Notes: generated from the letters alone by a model not told the origin. Positions 5,394-33,034 are shown, numbered from the stretch's first letter. The stretch is 64,000 nucleotides of DNA from the human T2T-CHM13v2.0 reference genome, Homo sapiens (GCF_009914755.1 NC_060930.1), one strand, 5' to 3'. Made by a program: numbers and translations.

Positions 5394-6379
5394 TGAAAAC
5401 ACTCATTTTTGTTAAGAAATAAAAGTAAGATACTGGCTATTGAGGATAAGGGGGTGTGATGAGATGAGCTCTGGACTGAAAATCAAAAACACTTAAAAGG
5501 TTAAGTCTCATCTGGGGTGTGGCCTGTAGGCTCCCAACTGTGCTCTGCAGTTGTCCAAGGCCCTCCCGTTTAAGAGCTGCTCCTGCAGAGCATACAGTTC
5601 CTGGCCTGCCCAGGCTCCCGCCAGCACGCTGGTGAGTCCTGATGTGGAAGGAAAAAGCAGCAGTGGCTTGGTACCCGGTGCTCCCAGGCTCCACCATCAG
5701 CCCTTAGAAATGCAGGAACTGACTGCACCTGTACAAAGGCCGTAGTCAAGGCCTCCTGACCCCAAGCCCCACGCTGTCAGGTGCATCCACGTGCATCTCC
5801 AGGCACTGTGCTAGCGCTTCTACCCTTGCTTTCTGGTCCTGGTTTGGTTTTATGATGATCCAAGTCATGTCATCCTCTAAAGTGCCAAAGTCAAATTGCT
5901 GAGTTAATTCACTTTGGGATTTAAAATGATGAAACCCTGAGGGAAAGCTGGTGGGGCTGGAGGTGGGAGGGGCAACCGTCAAGTGTGTCCTAAACATGAG
6001 ACTCATTTGTCTTCTTCCTGAATCTGATTTCAGGGACTTAAAGTTTTACCCCAGCTTTTTCCAAAGTGTATTCTAAGAAACAGAAGAGATCTCCAAAAAA
6101 TCTCCTTATGTATTCTCTTGGCAATCCATAGTCCATATTGCCATATTAAAGATAGAAATCCTGCAGAAGAGACACCTGTTATAATCCAGGCATTTCCTGA
6201 CTTAATTAACCTTGGAATTAAAAAAAAAAAAAAAAAAAGCAATTCCTGAAAACATGCTGCAGAGCTTTGGGAAACAACTTCATCCACCAGTGCTCATGCC
6301 TGGCCATTGCCCCGGACTGAATGCTCCTTGCATTCTTACTCCTGAAACCAAAATTAAGATGTCCTCATGGGAGGAGAGA

Positions 6380-6545
6380 ACATGGAATCTTCTCTTGCTA
6401 TCTCCACGGCCTTGAGCCAGGTACTTAAATTATTTGAACCTCAGTTTCCTTGTCTGTAATATGGGCATGACACCCATCTCAGGGGATTGGTAAGGATTAA
6501 ATGAGATGATTAAAGGCCTTGTCACATGTGACCGGTGAATATTAA
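6380..6545 (+). mobile_element. MIR
   Basis: MIR core acctcagtttccttgtctgtaatatggg...aggattaaatgaga. Confidence 0.75.
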
Positions 6546-6688
6546 CCCCAAACATCCATCCATCCATACATATAGACTTCTCCTTTGGCTGGTGTCCTAA
6601 AATGTGTTTCACACAAAGTCCAAGAGAATAGCTTCCCATTTTCATAACCAGTCACACAGCTTGTGTGACTCTTTGTTGCTGTTTTTGG

Positions 6689-6799
6689 TTTATAGTAAAA
6701 CGTCTTAGTCCATTGAAGGCCTGTATTTGGCACTAAATACTAAATACTAAATTTAGTGCCAATACAGGCCTTCAATGGACTAAGCCGTTGTACTGTAAA
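6689..6799. repeat. Fold-back quasi-palindrome: ~50-bp arms (6689-6738 / 6751-6799) with (ACTAAAT)x3 at the centre
   Basis: Arms are reverse complements with 3 mismatches and one 1-nt indel. Confidence 0.95.
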
Positions 6800-6801
6800 A
6801 C

Positions 6802-7046
6802 GTCCCTATGTCCATCTGACCTCTACATCCCACCACCCTTACACCCTTGAATCTGCCTGGTCTTTTAAGGGCTTCAGCTGGCGGCCACTGCCCTCCCCAG
6901 CCCGGCCCACCCTGCTTGGGTTCTGCAAAACCCCCCATGGGTTCGGCCTCCAGTTCACTCCTCAGATCCCCACATCTTTCTGATTGAGGATCCCATTCTG
7001 TTGTACCCATATTTAAAATTGCCCGTCATCTCACCAAGGCCAGCTT
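6802..7046 (+). repeat. Inverted duplication, copy A (partner 10697-10941)
   Basis: 245 bp, ungapped, 11 mismatches against the reverse complement of 10697-10941. Confidence 0.97.
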
Positions 7047-8324
7047 GATTCTGCATAATTTCTCTACCGAATGTCAGTTTTGGGTGTCCAACACCCTGCA
7101 GTGGTGGAAGATCGCACCTTTTTCGCAGACCTGGGGGAAGCAAATCTCTGGACTACAGTCACACAGTAAATTTGCTCTGCCCTACCCTGCCCTAACCTAA
7201 GAAAGTGTCTTGTAACACCTTTTAAAGGTCAGATGTGGCAGGTGGCCGACCACAGTGTTTAATTTGATACTCCTTTTCATCTGACACACAGCAGAGAGAG
7301 CCCCTCTAAAGAAAGAGCACTACGGTCTTCACGCGTAGCTGGAGATGGGCTGCAGTGCTGTGGGCTGGAGAAGTGGGATTCACGATACTCTTCACTTCCT
7401 GGTAGGCTTAAGGTCAGGTGAATCAATGAAGCTTGAGCCTTGATCTGCGTAAGTTTGGTATTTAGCTGGCCCGGGATTTGTATATTTACAAACTAGATTT
7501 TCCCCCAAGAGTTAAGGAACCGAAGCTTGGATGAAGCTTGGATGCGGCTCCTAAAGATGGTCTTCACCAAACAAAAGCGCTTCCTTCAGGCAAGAGCCAC
7601 AGCATTTGTCGAGTTGCCTCCTGGTAAGTGGTGATTACTTCACATTTGGATGTTTTTTGCACTTGAAAGAATTTCATGGCTATTAGTGGTTCTTCACAGA
7701 AGCCTTGGTATGGAACATTATCACATCCATCCTCCAAAAACAGAAGCAGAGGCTGACGCCCAAAATAACATGCCGAGTTAGAACCAAGCCGAGACCAAGA
7801 ATGTGTATGTACCCAAGATATTTTGCAGCTTTACACAAAATCTGGGGGAGACCAGGGACTTTTAAAACAGAAGCCGTGATGTACATTGGCCACAGTTAGA
7901 GGGAGAGAGGGGTCTTTCGTTAATTCTTCATTCTAGAGATTTAATGTCATATGCTCAGTTTATGTCTGTGCCTATATTAAAATGATACTGTTTCACCCAA
8001 AATCGGGATGGTCCTGGCAGCACTCTGTCTTTGCATAGCAGGCTCTGCCAAGGGTCTCCTTCCTGCTGTCATCCTCGTAATCCTCCAGAGCTTCCCTGCA
8101 TGTTTTGAGGAATAAATGTCATTATCATCCCTCCCTGGTGTAAGCAGCTCCTGTTACAGGGCTCACACCTGCACCACCTCTTTGGGCCTCCCTTATTCTA
8201 ATGCCCAAGGCTTGTGTGAACTCCTATGAGCAACTCAAGTTTGAGTCCGTATTCGACACACCTACTCTCTTGAGTAAAATTCCTAAAGCATGTCAGACAC
8301 ATTTTCTGCTCACCACGATCTTCA

Positions 8325-8988
<664 letters not shown>

Positions 8989-10696
8989 ATTTTTTTTGAA
9001 TTAAAATAAATGATGCTTTATGATAAATTAGAATTGTGCTGCTGTCAGCATTAACCAAACCCTGGCCACCTTAAAGCTGAAATTCATAGTCATCCAGGGA
9101 GTGGGCCTGTCCCGCAGGAATTGGTGTAACATTCCGCTCTGGGTTTAGTTAGGTCTTGGAAGCTTCGCTGACTTGGGGCTACTATTCCACTTAATAAATG
9201 GCCTCTAGAACCCCTATTGGACAACGCTCAGGGTTCTGATTCAATATTTTCTTCCATGTTTCAGTTTTCATTCATCCATTGAGACTTAGAAGAAGACACT
9301 TGAGGAATGACAAGTGACAAAGGACATTTGGGGAGGACACTAGTTGCTTAGGTTTGGCTCATGGCTATAAAAATTCAGGTCTCATAAGACAGCTTATTTG
9401 TTCCTATGGGGGGAAAGTGACGTGGTATATCTTACACATTTAAGATGAATACACTTAGCATGATTTTTTAAAATTACCCATAAGTGCAATGGTTGTTTTG
9501 TTGGTTCAGTGTGTTTTTCACCAAATGGTGTGAACATATGGCCAGAGCTTCTCTTGGCCATAAGATCTGAAGGGAGAAGAGTCCCCATGGCAAAGAGCCA
9601 TAGTGATTTATCCAGATGAGTTTCAATTCCAAAGGGGAGCTTAGAGTGAAGGCCTCTCCTAGCCAACTTTTCACACGCAATCCCCTCTCCCCACATTTAA
9701 CATTCAACTTCTGCTGTGTGGGTAATAGGAGATTGGAATGCATCTGGGAAAACGAAAAATGGGTTTTGTTAATGAGTGGAAGTTCATCTTGGTGGGCCCT
9801 GTTTTCAAATATTAAATGTGATATATTAGTTTGTGGGCTTGGATTTGATTTGAGCAATCAAATCTTGATAGGAACTGGCATCTCTTCCCACCCACCCAGA
9901 GTCTGTCTTTAGCAGCCGTTGCTGAATGGTGAGATCTGTAAGTGCCATGAATTGCTTTCAGTCTGATGCTTGAGAGGCTTGAACGGGGTATTGAACTTAG
10001 ATTTTTGGAGAACACTCCTTAAAGCCTCTTGCCTGGCTTCCTTTATGGCTTTTCAGTAGTTGAAAAGTGTATTGTTTTTTATTTTCAGGATGGTGGGGAG
10101 CTCCTACCTCTTCCCCAACCCTCATCTCCCCCCCCAGCTCAGCAAAGGTACTGGGGTGAGGGGTCATTACCCCCAGAGCAGCCAAAGGGTGCAAGACCCA
10201 GCTCTGTCTTCTTAGGAGGAGTGGGTCTTTGTCAAGGGGCCCTGGTTCAGAGCCTGCTCACCTCCACACCTCTGTCTATGTCATCCCTGCAGCATGACAG
10301 TGGGCAAAGCATGAGCACAGTCTAGCATGTAATCAGCATTCAGTAAACCATCGTGCTTTTTCATTCTGAAAGCAAATAACAAGCATCATCGTGTGACTCG
10401 TGGGGCCACACACGTCAGCAGGTAAGACCCATCCATGGTGATGGCATTGCCGAGATGTGCACAGGGTGCTGTGGGAGGATCCAGGAGAGGGGGAGCCCAC
10501 CCCGGCTGGGAGGGAGCAACCTGGGAAGGCTTCCTGCAGGAAGCTGCCTTTGGAGACAGAGGGCTCATCATATGGGAGAGAGACAGTTGGAAGAGATCCC
10601 TGGGCATTCTGGAATCTCGAAACGTAAGAGTTCAGTTGTGGGTTTTGAAAGGTTCTGAGGGAGGAGTTGGGGCGGGTGCCCCGCGTCTCTCCTGAG

Positions 10697-10941
10697 AAGC
10701 TGGCCTTGGCGAGATGCCGGGCAATTTTAAATATGGGTACAACAGAATGGGATCCTCAATCAGAAAGATGCAGGGATCTGAGGAGTGAACTGGAGACCGA
10801 ACCCACTGGGGGTTTTGCAAAACCCAAGCAGGGTGGGCCGGGCTGGGGAGGGCAGTGGCCGCCAGCTGAAGCCCTTAAAAGACCAGACAGATTCAAGGGT
10901 GTGAGGGTGGTGGGATGTAGAGGTCAGGTGGACATAGGGAC
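10697..10941 (-). repeat. Inverted duplication, copy B (partner 6802-7046)
   Basis: As above; the ORF track shows the near-identical peptide MGTTEWDPQSERC... on opposite strands. Confidence 0.97.
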
Positions 10942-11149
10942 AAAAGGGAACGGGGGGTCCTGGCGCCGGTCACTGAAAGTGGTGCTGCTAGTCACAGAGA
11001 GGCCAGATCCGAGGAAGGCCTGGGCTGGGCAGCCAGCCTCGGGGAGGGGGTTTGTCTGGCAGGATTAGGGCCCGGAGGCGTCCAGAACCTCTGAAGGCGC
11101 TGAGCTGGTGGCAGAGGGAAGCTGAGGTTGCTCACCAGCGGGCCTTTGG

Positions 11150-11490
11150 GAAAGCAGTGGATCCCCTGCTATCCACGTGGGCAAAAAAGTACCCCAAGGG
11201 TCTTTGGGAAGCGGAAGACAGAGGCGGAAGAGGCGGCTCAGAGAGACGACACTGCACAGCGAGGGCCAGAGAGGCCACAGGAAGGTTCATGGCCAAGAAA
11301 CCAGGAAAGGCAAGGAAACAGGCTGTACCCTAGAGCCCTGGGGGGAGTGCAGCTCTGCCCCACCGTGATGCTAGCCCGGGAGGCCTGTGCCTGACTTGAA
11401 GCCACCAGAACTGTAAGCTCGTCCACCTGTGTTGTTTTAAGTCACCAAATTTGTGGTGATTTGTTGCAGAAGCAACAGGACACTGATAGA
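11150..11490 (+). mobile_element. MaLR LTR (MLT1-type)
   Basis: 3' end tgttgttttaagtcaccaaatttgtggtgatttgttgcagaagcaacaggacactgata is characteristic of MLT1. Confidence 0.75.
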
Positions 11491-13139
11491 GGGGCTTTTT
11501 GAGTCTGTGGTGCTTATAGGATGTCCGAGGAGAACCGGTGAGGGAGCGGCTGATTGCAGGGGTCTGGGCTCAGCAGGTGGAGAGGGTTGGTGTCATCTCC
11601 ATAGAGGTGGGGAGTGCGGGGTGAGTGGAGACCTGAGGGTGGGAGCAGATTGCCAGCAAGAGCGTGGAAGGGGCGGGCTGGAAAGAGGAGGCAAGAAGGA
11701 CAGGACGGAGAGGGCGGGTGGGGCACTGGGAGAGGCCAGGGAGCCCATGTTGGCACCAAGAGCCAAAGGCTTCCAGGAGATGCTGCCACAGGGCCCAGGC
11801 TGCAGGACAGGCCCAGATGGCAGCAGAGGGTTCCCTCGATTCTGCAATGGGAGCTCATGGACCATGCAGATGACAGGGCCAGCGTTGGGTGGAGGGGGGG
11901 GTGGCTGTGCAGATGACAGGGCCAGCGTCGGGGGTTGCTGCCCTTGCCCACCTTCAGGGCCTGCTATGAAAGGCTGCTCCATGGACACGCCCTTTGAGAT
12001 GCTTCTCAGGACAGGGGCTCAGGATCCCCCGTGCCCAGCTCACTCCTGCTCGGGAAAGCCTGCCCCACCAGCGACCTTGCCTCTCCTCATGCATGAAAAT
12101 CATCCTACTTTGCTCTTCACAAAAGTGTGGGTGGAGAAAACGGCCTTCAACACTCCTCAGAGCACCTCCTCGGAGCGGAAGCTGCTTCCTGGGGTGTGTT
12201 TCTGTTCTGGAGGTTGCACCTTCGATCCTGAGGCGTGGGAGCTGGCCTGAGGTTGAAGGTGAGGCTGAGGACCTGGGTGAGGCTCCCCAAGGCCCCCGGC
12301 TGGGCTGAGCAAAGAACGGGAGCGTGCCCCCACCACTCACAGGGTGTCCACACCTGGAGAAGGAAACCACAGGCTTTGTCACCTTTGTCTTAAGTCAGTG
12401 GGACAAACCTAGAAAGTGAGGCATTTTGGACAGCTCCAAGGTGGCTGTGTCCTGGCCTGCCCAGACCGAGGGCCCCGGGATTCTGGAGGCGCAGATTGGA
12501 TCCCAGGATGCATGACTAGTGACTCCTAAGGTGGGAACCCCTGGGTGAGCGAGGAGTGGGAGGCCGGTGCACATCCACCTTCTGTCCCGGCCTCCTCTTC
12601 CGCCGGTCCTGTATTTCTCTCGAAGTCTCATCCCGGCCATCAGAGCCTCAAGACTTCTCAAGCTCCTGGCACATTCTGAGGTAAGCACCTAGGTTGATGG
12701 TGGCCTTCTCTCCACACACAGCACAGCCACGCTGGGGAGTGGGGGCCGGTGAATGGCCTGGGGACAGGCCACAAGCAGGCCTAGGTGGGGGTGCCCTGGC
12801 CTGCTGTCCCCTCCACCCCTGTCCTGGGAGCCTGTCTGCACCAGCACAGAAAGAATATCACGGCTGTCACCCACAGGGCCTAGCAGCCGGGTTTTTCTCA
12901 CCAAGAGCTCGTGTGGAGAGGGACGCAACATGTTTCCCTTTTATGAGGCTGCTCCCTGTCCCCAAAGGTGGGGCTGACGGGTGTTCCTGGGAAATGAGAG
13001 CCTGCCCTGCCCTTTCCCCGGGGCTCCCTCGTCCATGCTCAGCCTCCCAGAAGCCCCTCCTGCTGAGTTGCCCACAGCCCTCCCTGCCGGCCTGGCCTCT
13101 CCTTGCAGCTCTTCCTCTTCTCATGAAGGTGTGTGGAGG

Positions 13140-31952: not shown

Positions 31953-33034
31953 ATGGTGGTGATAGAGAGTATAATAGTGGTGATGGTGAGGATGGTGGTT
32001 GGTGGTGATGGTGATTGTAATGGCAATGGTGGTGGTGAGGATGGTGGGAATGATGGGGGTGATGGGGGTGATGGTGGTGATGGTGGTGATGTGGTAAGGA
32101 TAAAGGTGATAGTGGTTATGGTGATGGTGATGATGAGAGTGGCAGCAGTGGTGGTGAGGATGAGGGTGATGGTGATAATGATGAGAGTGGTGATGGTGGT
32201 GGTGAGGATGAGGGTGATGGTGATAATGATGATGGTGGTGATGGTGGTAGTAAGGATGAGGGTGATGGCGATAATGATGATGGTGATGGTGATGGTGAAG
32301 ATGAGAGTGATGGTGATAATGATGGTAGTGATGGTGGTGAGGATGAGGGTGATAGTGATAATGACGATAGTGGTGATGAGGGCGATAGTGGTTATGGTGA
32401 TGGTGGTGATGAGGGTGATAGTGGTTATGGTGATGGTGGTGATGAGGGTGGCTGTGATGGTTGTGGTGAGGATGAGGGTGATGGTGATGATAGTGGTGAT
32501 GATGGTAAAGATGAGGGTGATAGTGGTGATGGTGATGAGGGTGGCGGTGATGGTTGTGAGGATGAGTGTGATGGTGATGATGGTGGTGATGATGGTAAGG
32601 ATGAGGGTGATGGTGGTAGCGGTTATGGTGATGGTGATGATGAGGGTGGCAGTGATGGGGATGGTGAGGATGAGGGTGATGGTGATAATTATGATGGTGG
32701 TGATGGTGGTGGTGAGGATGAGGGTGATGGTGGTAATGACAATGGTGGTGATGGTAAGGATGAGGGTGATAGTGGTTATGGTGATGGTGGTGATGAGGGT
32801 GGTGGTGATGGTTGTGGTGAGGATGAGGGTGATGGTGATGATGATGGTGATGATGGTAAGGATGGGGGTGATAGTGGTGGTAGTGGTTATGGTGATGGTG
32901 ATGATGAGGGTGGCAGTGATGGTGGTGGTGGGGATGAGGGTGATGGTGATGGGGGTGGTGGTAGTGATGATGATCAGGATGGTGATGAGGTGGTGATGGT
33001 GAGGATCAGGGTGACGTTGTGGTGGTGATGGTGG
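31953..33034 (+). repeat. ~1.1-kb degenerate (ATG/GTG/AGG) triplet minisatellite, almost C-free on the + strand
   Basis: Direct reading; recurring gtgaggatgagggtgatggtg blocks. Confidence 0.97.

What the first reader, a model, noticed from the sequence alone, without database searches (positions are those of the whole stretch)
6689..7046. Fossil multi-step template-switch scar: fold-back palindrome fused to a 245-bp inverted copy from 3.65 kb downstream
Seen, in order: unique arm 6689-6738; ACTAAAT triplicated (6732-6752); inverted copy of the arm (6751-6799; 3 mismatches, 1 indel); then, within 2 nt, 6802-7046, the reverse complement of 10697-10941 (234/245 identical, no gaps). There is no TSD, poly(A) or transposon signature. 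Established: slippage, fold-back and distant templated inserts are hallmarks of MMBIR/FoSTeS or Pol-theta repair. The donor segment contains a five-tract G4 motif GGGTGGGCCGGGCTGGGGAGGG (10831-10852) and a perfect 16-bp palindrome GGGTTTTGCAAAACCC (10810-10825), both plausible fork-stalling structures. Inference: one old event (4.5% divergence suggests catarrhine/ape age) 2.5 kb past the ARID1B PAS, in the transcription-termination zone.
Basis: partly seen in the sequence, partly recalled or inferred. Interest (0 to 1): 0.72.

Follow-up and report, generated by a model that had tools for sequence, protein, structure and literature searches.

The report
Old templated-insertion scar beside ARID1B
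About 2.4 kb past the end of the human ARID1B gene lies an old DNA-copying accident, a small hairpin-forming palindrome joined to a flipped 245-base copy of sequence from 3.65 kb further on; it is a clear example of a known kind of mutation and shows no sign of a function.

Summary
Arms 6689-6738 and 6751-6799 form a near-perfect palindrome: 46 matches, 3 mismatches and 1 gap. DNA fold energy is -44.9 kcal/mol, z = -14.4. ACTAAAT x3 sits at the centre. Two bases later, 6802-7046 is the gapless reverse complement of 10697-10941, 234 of 245 identical.

Neither piece is a dispersed repeat. The 245-mer has 2 places in the 3.1-Gb assembly and the palindrome has 1. There is no target-site duplication, poly(A) or poly(A) signal.

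Composition points to the downstream copy as donor. It fits its G-rich, purine-skewed surroundings, whereas the upstream copy is an outlier among its flanks.

Best reading: a fixed templated insertion made by serial template switching, first folding back and then jumping 3.65-3.9 kb. This kind of event is known (template-switch mutations, MMBIR/FoSTeS, class 2 templated insertions).

Not shown:
- that it was one event rather than two linked ones;
- the date, since no primate genomes were available;
- any role for the donor's G4 motif or palindrome, both of which lie inside the donor rather than at its ends.

An inversion with a staggered-break duplication remains a minority rival. Interest is modest.

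The parts
6689..6738 (+). Left palindrome arm, taken to be the resident sequence that served as first template
   Evidence: pairs with 6751-6799 (46 matches, 3 mismatches, 1 gap). It is continuous with the AT-rich left flank.
6732..6752 (+). ACTAAAT x3 tandem at the palindrome centre. Units 2-3 minus the last AT (6739-6750) form the 12-nt loop. The terminal AT (6751-6752) is shared with the right arm, giving a 2-nt self-complementary microhomology.
   Evidence: TRF: period 7, 3.0 copies, 100%; 12-nt loop in the fold; junction J1.
6751..6799 (-). Right palindrome arm: inverted copy of 6689-6738 (the fold-back segment)
   Evidence: Its only other match in the genome is the left arm.
6800..6801 (.). 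Two bases (AC) of uncertain origin between the two templated pieces. They are either a continuation of the fold-back copy with one error or untemplated filler.
   Evidence: 6687 G pairs with 6801 C; 6688/6800 unpaired. One search shows no match to the donor side.
6802..7046 (-). Copy A: 245-base inverted copy of 10697-10941, read as the inserted copy
   Evidence: 234/245, no gaps. It is a compositional outlier: GC 0.551 and GC skew -0.378 against flanks of 0.395/-0.114 and 0.480/-0.042. Purine fraction is 0.351, below all 47 flank windows (minimum 0.396).
7047..10696 (.). 3,650-base spacer between the two copies. It contains two Alu-like elements at about 8389-9017. Whether it is inverted relative to the ancestor is untested.
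   Evidence: spacing; Alu-like direct repeats D1-D3; sub-threshold SRP/Alu matches at 8543-8985.
10697..10941 (+). Copy B: the probable donor, resident in its context
   Evidence: GC 0.555 and GC skew +0.324, between flanks of 0.575/+0.270 and 0.650/+0.292. Purine fraction 0.641 lies inside the flank range 0.429-0.694, and the Markov score sits at the median of B-native segments.
10810..10852 (+). Interior of the donor: 16-bp perfect palindrome (10810-10825) and G4 motif (10831-10852). In copy A the palindrome has one mismatch (6923) and the C-rich complement of the G4 is intact (6891-6912).
10201..12100 (+). G-skewed, GC-rich domain (GC skew above 0.15 in merged 500-nt windows) in which the donor lies

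Best explanation
This is a fixed, old mutational scar with no sign of function. It is a complex templated insertion created when one growing 3' DNA end switched template several times.

Proposed order of events (inferred):
1. Synthesis of the + strand reached the ACTAAAT tract, at or before 6752.
2. The end let go and re-paired through the self-complementary AT.
3. It copied the + strand backwards from 6738 to 6689, giving the right arm and so a 50-bp-arm palindrome.
4. After two bases of unclear origin (AC), it moved to the + strand 3.9 kb ahead and copied 10941 back to 10697, giving copy A.
5. It then returned to its proper template at 7047.

Both inserted pieces are therefore copies of the same (+) strand. 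That strand is the lagging-strand template for a rightward fork and the non-transcribed strand of ARID1B read-through.

The enzymology cannot be read from the sequence: replicative MMBIR/FoSTeS or polymerase-theta-type break repair.

Shown: the anatomy, the uniqueness in the genome, the absence of transposon marks, and a composition that makes the downstream copy the resident one. Inferred: the order of steps, that it was one event, and the age.
For: - Anatomy: two adjacent reverse-complement copies of two different local templates, separated by 2 nt.
- Both are far beyond chance: E = 8.8e-90 and 1e-25; fold z = -14.4.
- Uniqueness: the 245-mer matches 2 of 2 candidate places in the 3.1-Gb assembly even at E up to 10. 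The palindrome matches only itself. A 22-nt arm core with up to 3 mismatches gives 2 exact hits (the two arms) plus 14 hits at 3 mismatches, against 10 for the reversed control.
- The same search tool found 77-94% identical 36-84-nt repeats elsewhere in neighbouring queries, so old repeat families of that kind were detectable.
- No TSD, poly(A) or poly(A) signal.
- Donor polarity: copy B matches the GC content, G skew and purine content of both its flanks, and copy A matches neither of its flanks. In a flank-trained Markov test the observed score (5.6 at order 1, 2.7 at order 2) lies at the median of 25 B-native control segments and is reached by 2 of 24 A-native ones.
- Divergences of the two pieces are compatible: 6.1% and 4.5%, p = 0.71.
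- The kind is documented. [quoted passage not shown] Abstract and section 9 read: PMC10710096 (more than 6,000 hairpins of miRNA size from such events on the primate-to-human lineage).
Against: - No outgroup sequence was available, so the empty site, the joint origin of the two pieces and the orientation of the spacer are all unverified.
- Microhomology, the hallmark of MMBIR and polymerase-theta joining, is minimal: 2 nt at the fold-back, 0 at 6801|6802 and at most 1 at 7046|7047.
- The composition test is only moderate. 2 of 24 A-native segments score as high, and the control segments overlap and come from about 2.8 kb per side.
- The second template lies about 3.9 kb ahead of the presumed fork, where a simple rightward fork would not yet have exposed single strands. 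An extra assumption is needed: a second fork, an R-loop or an RNA template.
- The ACTAAAT triplication may be an unrelated slippage before or after the event.
Confidence: 0.5

Rival explanations
1. Two causally linked events. A short-range template switch first made the palindrome. Later the palindrome extruded as a hairpin or cruciform and was cut at or near its base. The break was then patched with a 245-base copy of nearby sequence. The reverse order is also possible.
For: The insert begins 2 nt from the outer end of the right arm, which is where a cruciform base would be cut. The arms are nominally more diverged (3/49, or 4/50 with the indel) than the 245-mer pair (11/245). Palindromes are described as fragile sites (PMC7999016, abstract in the listing only).
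Against: The divergence difference is not significant (p = 0.71, or 0.29 with the indel). One compound event is more economical, and multi-template germline insertions are documented (PMC8421209, passages).
Confidence: 0.22
2. A small inversion of about 3.65-3.9 kb made by a staggered break. The 245-base stretch at one breakpoint was single-stranded on both ends, filled in, and so ended up at both ends of the inverted segment in opposite orientation. The palindrome is then a junction by-product or a coincidence.
For: The geometry X'-spacer-X is exactly what the staggered-break model predicts (PMC1885836, listing and abstract; details of the model recalled). The pair is the only inverted pair above 91% identity, and the only one outside NCBI-masked repeats, within 8 kb in the window's 25 listed pairs of 28 found (with the hub's mask list).
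Against: The model makes 10696|10697 a new junction. Yet GC content, G skew and purine skew run smoothly across it (0.575/+0.270 to 0.555/+0.324), inside one continuous G-skew domain at 10201-12100. Meanwhile 7046|7047, which the model makes ancestral, is a compositional step (skew -0.378 to -0.042). The model also does not account for the fold-back arm.
Confidence: 0.1
3. Reverse polarity. Copy A is ancestral and copy B is the insertion. Synthesis along A stopped where it met the pre-existing hairpin at 6799-6801.
For: A hairpin is a plausible barrier, which would explain why the duplicated block ends 2 nt from the palindrome.
Against: Copy A is the compositional outlier. Its purine fraction of 0.351 is below all 47 local windows, while copy B at 0.641 lies inside its local range. 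GC skew gives the same answer, and the Markov score is reached by only 2 of 24 A-native segments.
Confidence: 0.08
4. RNA-templated patch (a class 2 templated sequence insertion). A break near 6752 was repaired by reverse transcription of the + sense ARID1B read-through transcript, first at 6738-6689 and then at 10941-10697.
For: Both inserted pieces are complements of the + (sense) strand, as expected if a + strand 3' end primed on sense RNA. There is no TSD or poly(A), which matches class 2 TSIPs (PMC5110952, passages). Polymerase theta can reverse transcribe RNA (PMC8195485, title and abstract in the listing only).
Against: There is no evidence here that transcription reaches 6.6 kb past the annotated gene end. 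Nothing in the sequence separates an RNA template from a DNA template. [quoted passage not shown]
Confidence: 0.1
5. The pieces are members of an unrecognised dispersed repeat or MITE family.
For: None found. The only caveat is that the genome search skips very common words and scores only the best candidates (notes), and no Dfam/RepeatMasker run was possible.
Against: 2 of 2 places for the 245-mer and 1 for the palindrome, even at E up to 10 for the 245-mer. The arm core is at chance level. There is no TSD. Rfam gives only sub-threshold generic miRNA-hairpin matches, best 47.1 bits against a gathering score of 96.2.
Confidence: 0.02

Closest known systems
Template-switch mutations under the four-point model (Loytynoja & Goldman 2017, PMC5453318; Monttinen et al. 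2023, PMC10710096)
   Same: A fragment is replaced or extended by the reverse complement of a nearby fragment in a single event. This creates a ready-made hairpin; event types 1-4-3-2 and 3-2-1-4 create an inverted repeat. Such events are frequent on the primate lineage: 53,666 putative events in genic regions, 31,007 forming a new stem. The 6689-6799 palindrome fits this pattern.
   Different: Here the fold-back is followed directly by a second, much longer copy (245 nt) from a template 3.65-3.9 kb away. The pre-event state was not observed, so the four switch points cannot be placed.
MMBIR/FoSTeS templated insertions (Hastings et al. 2009, PMC2621351, abstract in the listing; Osia et al. 2021, PMC8421209)
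   Same: Inverted copies of local templates are inserted at one site. [quoted passage not shown]
   Different: The detection signature in that work requires templates within 100 bp and flanking microhomology. Here one template is 3.65-3.9 kb away and microhomology is 2, 0 and at most 1 nt.
Class 2 templated sequence insertion polymorphisms (Onozawa & Aplan 2016, PMC5110952)
   Same: A patch is copied from elsewhere in the genome with the donor left intact. There is no TSD, poly(A) or cryptic poly(A) signal, and the junctions show few or no homologous bases and possible filler nucleotides.
   Different: [quoted passage not shown] This donor is 3.65 kb away on the same chromosome, an RNA origin is unknown, and the patch is fused to a fold-back copy. 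This instance also looks fixed and old rather than polymorphic, though polymorphism was not tested.
Staggered-break inversions with inverted duplications at the breakpoints (Ranz et al. 2007, PMC1885836)
   Same: Two inverted copies of a short unique sequence bracket a few-kb segment.
   Different: Composition is continuous across the junction that this model requires to be new. The spacer's ancestral orientation is unknown. The model is described from Drosophila inversions (listing and abstract only).
Foldback priming at double-strand breaks (Al-Zain et al. 2023, PMC10622511)
   Same: A resected 3' end anneals to a short nearby inverted repeat and is extended to give an inverted duplication.
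   Different: In yeast this yields hairpin-capped chromosomes and large inverted duplications. Here the copy stopped after about 50 nt and the chromosome was restored.

Membership tests
Template-switch mutation (four-point model) | A fragment that is the reverse complement of a nearby fragment, beyond chance | tested here: met
   6751-6799 against 6689-6738: 46 of 50 columns match; fold z = -14.4.
Template-switch mutation (four-point model) | An ancestral (outgroup) sequence lacking the copy, so that one switch explains the change | not testable with these tools
   No primate genome is held (one search states the assembly has no relatives here).
MMBIR/FoSTeS templated insertion | The inserted sequence is an inverted copy of a template, and the donor is retained | tested here: met
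   Both pieces are inverted copies and both templates are still present.
MMBIR/FoSTeS templated insertion | Microhomology at the switch junctions | tested here: inconclusive
   2 nt (AT) at the fold-back, 0 nt at 6801|6802 with a 2-nt unexplained AC, and at most 1 nt (T) at the return. The pre-event sequence is unknown.
MMBIR/FoSTeS templated insertion | Template close to the insertion (within 100 bp in the MMBSearch signature, PMC8421209) | tested here: not met
   Met for the arm (template 12 nt away) but not for the 245-mer (3,650 nt between copies). This is a criterion of one detection tool rather than of the mechanism.
Class 2 templated sequence insertion | No TSD, no poly(A) tract, no cryptic poly(A) signal | tested here: met
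   the longest shared flank word is 4 nt, there is no A/T run of 6 or more, and there is no AATAAA or ATTAAA in or around the donor.
Class 2 templated sequence insertion | Patch derived from an RNA transcript of the donor | not testable with these tools
   No expression data. The orientation is compatible with a sense-RNA template (inference).
LINE-1-mediated insertion (class 1 TSIP or processed copy) | TSD of at least 5 bp, a poly(A) tail, and a TTTT/A target | tested here: not met
   none of the three is present.
MITE / DNA-transposon hairpin element | Multiple dispersed copies with terminal inverted repeats and a TSD | tested here: not met
   One place in the genome, arm core at chance level, and no flanking duplication.
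Dispersed repeat or segmental-duplication family (the 245-mer) | More than two copies in the genome | tested here: not met
   2 of 2 candidates, at E up to 10. The tool's caveat on very common words applies. The sensitivity control is the 77-94% identical hits.
Staggered-break inversion | Inverted duplicates bracketing a segment that is inverted relative to outgroups | tested here: inconclusive
   The bracketing geometry is met. Orientation against outgroups is not testable. Composition continuity across 10696|10697 argues against.
microRNA precursor | A match to a curated family at its gathering score | tested here: not met
   The best hits over 6690-6798 score 47.1, 45.3 and 44.9 bits against gathering scores of 96.2, 89 and 59. 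They hit unrelated families on both strands, which is generic long-hairpin behaviour.

The most novel reading that the evidence does not exclude
The donor may have been usable as a template because transcription had made it single-stranded. It lies in a 1.9-kb G-skewed domain (10201-12100) with a G4 motif, 5.9-7.8 kb past the ARID1B gene end. Sequence of this kind is reported to form R-loops in termination zones (Ginno et al. 2013, recalled, not retrieved). Both inserted pieces are complements of the + strand, which is the R-loop-displaced strand and also the sense of any read-through RNA. On this reading the scar would be a fixed germline example of a transcription-exposed strand, or the transcript itself, templating break repair a few kb away. 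A bolder variant: in read-through RNA the 50-bp hairpin and the 245-bp, 96% complementary pair would form long double-stranded RNA, a possible editing or sensing substrate that is not an Alu pair.
Probability: 0.12. Interest if true: 0.5.

Novelty: new member of a known kind. Interest (0 to 1): 0.3.

Why it matters
The locus is a clean worked example, with every base assignable, of one 3' end using a near template (12 nt away) and a far one (3.65-3.9 kb away) in succession. Current genome-wide screens for template-switch or MMBIR insertions look only at short range, for example templates within 100 bp (PMC8421209). Compound events like this one are therefore probably under-counted, and in alignments they would appear as an unexplained 300-bp lineage-specific insertion.

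If primate alignments show both pieces arriving on one branch, the locus would make a useful test case for extending such screens to kilobase-range templates. It would also give a datable marker in the ARID1B 3' flank.

No function is indicated, and nothing here bears on ARID1B coding sequence or its annotated 3' UTR.

Tried and rejected
- Dispersed repeat or MITE. Rejected by whole-assembly searches and a mismatch-tolerant search with the arm core (16 hits against 10 control hits, and only the two arms match exactly).
- Paralogous 'empty sites'. I searched the flanks 6300-6738 and 7047-7500 and the donor region 10200-11400 genome-wide, hoping a repeat family would span a junction and show the pre-event state. 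Only short unrelated repeats turned up, at about 6411-6478 and about 11296-11377, and none spans a junction. This led nowhere.
- Known RNA family. Rfam at E up to 1 over 5500-12500 gave 16 sub-threshold matches. They were generic miRNA-hairpin hits on the palindrome and Alu/SRP-related hits at 8541-8985. Rejected.
- Further small templated pieces. A word-7 BLAST of 6600-7250 against the whole window found only the two known pairs and one chance-level hit (E = 0.32).
- Error-prone synthesis signature. Two adjacent-base differences occur among the 11 (6936-6937 and 6971-6972). By simulation, P(2 or more adjacent pairs) = 0.068, which is not significant.
- NAHR-competent inverted repeat. The longest uninterrupted identity is 66 nt, which I judge from recalled knowledge to be short for efficient recombination. 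Polymorphic inversion was not testable.
- Prior report of the locus. I searched the three held supplements of PMC10710096 for ARID1B and for coordinate prefixes. I derived those prefixes from a recalled GRCh38 gene-end coordinate, so this negative is weak (0 occurrences). No other paper's supplements were searched.
- A search for the GC-skew/R-loop/termination paper I had in mind did not list it, so it is cited as recalled only.

Full report
**What is there.**

- 6689-6738 and 6751-6799 are inverted copies of each other: 46 matches, 3 mismatches and one 1-base gap over 50 columns.
- Between and overlapping them lies ACTAAAT in exactly three tandem copies, 6732-6752.
- As single-stranded DNA, 6680-6810 folds into one long hairpin with a 12-nt loop at -44.9 kcal/mol. 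200 dinucleotide-preserving shuffles average -9.55 (sd 2.45), giving z = -14.4, and none does as well.
- Two bases (AC, 6800-6801) follow.
- Then 6802-7046 is the gapless reverse complement of 10697-10941 with 234 of 245 identical: 9 transitions, 2 transversions, and a longest identical run of 66.
- Similarity ends abruptly at all four ends.

I corrected one point of my own. I first thought the palindrome ran on to 6687/6801.

**Is it a repeat family?**

The window's own 3.1-Gb assembly could be searched.
- The 245-mer, queried from either copy, finds 2 of 2 candidate places, the two copies themselves, even with E allowed up to 10.
- The 111-base palindrome finds only itself on both strands.
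- A 22-base core of the arm with up to 3 mismatches finds the two arms exactly plus 14 three-mismatch hits, against 10 hits for the reversed control. That is chance level.

The tool warns that it skips very common words and scores only the best candidates. As a sensitivity control, neighbouring queries did pick up 77-94% identical repeats of 36-84 nt on other chromosomes, matching window positions about 6411-6478 and 11296-11377.

Rfam gives only sub-threshold, mutually inconsistent miRNA-hairpin matches to the palindrome, best 47.1 bits against a gathering score of 96.2.

There is no target-site duplication (longest shared flank word 4 nt), no A or T run of 6 or more in 6650-7100, and no AATAAA or ATTAAA in or near the donor.

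Among the 25 longest inverted pairs listed (of 28 found) within 8 kb in the whole window, this is the only one above 91% identity. It is also the only one outside the stretches the hub lists as masked repeats.

Transposon, retro-insertion and repeat-family readings are therefore rejected, subject to a Dfam run that I could not do.

**Which copy is the original?**

No outgroup genome is available here, so I used local composition.

| Segment | GC | GC skew | CpG o/e |
|---|---|---|---|
| Left flank of B (200 nt) | 0.575 | +0.270 | 0.39 |
| Copy B | 0.555 | +0.324 | 0.30 |
| Right flank of B (200 nt) | 0.650 | +0.292 | 0.47 |
| Left flank of A (200 nt) | 0.395 | -0.114 | 0.13 |
| Copy A | 0.551 | -0.378 | 0.25 |
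| Right flank of A (200 nt) | 0.480 | -0.042 | 0.26 |

All values are; the profile agrees. Copy B sits inside one continuous G-skew domain at 10201-12100.

Purine fraction tells the same story:
- Copy A is 0.351, below the minimum (0.396) of 47 local 245-nt windows.
- Copy B is 0.641, inside its local range of 0.429-0.694 (49 windows).

I also ran a Markov-chain test trained on about 2.8 kb of flanks per locus, with held-out control segments. The observed score lies at the median of 25 B-native segments (12 of 25 score lower or equal) and is reached by 2 of 24 A-native segments. The result is the same at order 1 and order 2. This is moderate evidence, not decisive, that B is resident and A is the insert.

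**One event or two, and when?**

The arm pair differs at 3 of 49 aligned bases (plus one indel) and the 245-mer pair at 11 of 245. Fisher p is 0.71, or 0.29 if the indel is counted. The ages are compatible, but the test has almost no power.

The near-abutment of the two templated pieces, 2 nt apart, makes an unlinked coincidence very unlikely. It does not separate one compound event from a palindrome that later broke at its base and was patched.

Jukes-Cantor divergence of the 245-mer pair is 4.6%; the uncorrected 95% CI is 2.3-7.9%. Paralogue divergence accrues like divergence between species.

The caveats pull both ways. Copying errors at the event would make it look older. Gene conversion between the arms would make it look younger.
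- Only one of the 11 differences is at a CpG (7033).
- Two differences are adjacent-base pairs (6936-6937 and 6971-6972). That hints at error-prone synthesis, but it is expected by chance 6.8% of the time.

**Mechanism (inferred).**

Both inserted pieces are complements of the + strand. The simplest account has five steps:
1. A + strand 3' end stood in the ACTAAAT tract.
2. It re-paired through the self-complementary AT (2-nt microhomology).
3. It copied 6738 to 6689.
4. It added or miscopied AC, moved to 10941 and copied back to 10697.
5. It returned at 7047, with at most 1 nt of homology.

The first switch is a classic short-range template-switch mutation. Passages of PMC5453318 describe single events that create inverted repeats. 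PMC10710096 (abstract and section 9) counts 53,666 putative events in genic regions on the primate-to-human lineage, 31,007 forming a new stem and 6,054 of miRNA size.

Multi-template inverted insertions occur as germline variants in normal people. There were 103 and 99 events of 25 bp or more in two individuals, with up to five templates (PMC8421209, passages). That screen only considers templates within 100 bp.

The lack of TSD and poly(A), together with near-blunt junctions, also matches class 2 templated sequence insertions (PMC5110952, passages).

The sequence cannot tell a replicative route (MMBIR/FoSTeS) from polymerase-theta-type break repair. The small microhomologies favour neither strongly.

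The three ACTAAAT units may be slippage at the event. They could equally be a later change at the palindrome centre. Recalled knowledge, not checked here: perfect palindromes tend to be stabilised by changes at their centre.

**The donor's G4 motif and palindrome.**

Both are real, but they lie at positions 114-156 of the 245-base donor, not at either end. Copy A carries the G4 complement intact at 6891-6912.

They fit a different, speculative idea better. The G-skewed domain could form R-loops during ARID1B read-through, exposing the + strand, or providing + sense RNA, as a template. That would explain how a template about 3.9 kb ahead of the 3' end came to be available. It is my 'novel case' and is untested. 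The key paper (Ginno et al. 2013) is recalled and was not retrieved.

**Rivals.**

- Two linked events (0.22).
- A small inversion with a staggered-break inverted duplication (0.10). The geometry fits (PMC1885836, listing and abstract only). However, composition is continuous across 10696|10697, which that model makes a new junction, and discontinuous across 7046|7047, which it makes ancestral.
- Reverse polarity, with copying halted at the hairpin (0.08), which goes against the composition tests.
- An RNA-templated patch (0.10, overlapping the best explanation).
- An unrecognised repeat (0.02).

**Verdict.**

The piece of evidence that matters most, primate orthologues, could not be obtained with these tools. 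What is there belongs to a known kind of mutation, and the locus itself was not found in the one supplement set I could search (a weak negative). I rate it a new member of a known kind, with modest interest (0.3).

Noticed in passing
window 31978-33033: A minisatellite of about 1.05 kb with unit TGGTGA (171.8 copies, 63% matches) and a 48-nt higher-order period. The + strand is almost free of C: GC skew is 0.94-0.96 and the G fraction about 0.5. This is the strongest skew in the window.
   Followed up: partly
window 10201-12100: A GC-rich (0.52-0.65), G- and purine-skewed domain 5.9-7.8 kb past the annotated ARID1B end. It holds G4 motifs at 10831-10852 and 11712-11730, and a 25-nt direct repeat 43 nt apart (11865-11889 and 11908-11932, 96%). 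It could be an R-loop-prone termination zone or an unannotated regulatory element.
   Followed up: partly
window about 6411-6478 and about 11296-11377: Short stretches of about 60-80 nt with 77-94% identical matches on several other chromosomes. These are fragments of old dispersed repeats that NCBI's mask list (stretches of 100 or more) does not show.
   Followed up: no
window 6936-6937 and 6971-6972 (copy A) against 10806-10807 and 10771-10772 (copy B): Two of the differences between the 245-mer copies are adjacent-base changes (CA vs AG, and CA vs TG). This is a possible mark of low-fidelity synthesis at the copying event, but by simulation it is not significant (P = 0.068).
   Followed up: yes
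window 8389-9017: Two adjacent Alu-like elements inside the spacer, with sub-threshold SRP RNA matches on the + strand. They also give the sub-threshold mir-3135 and mir-1268 Rfam hits.
   Followed up: no
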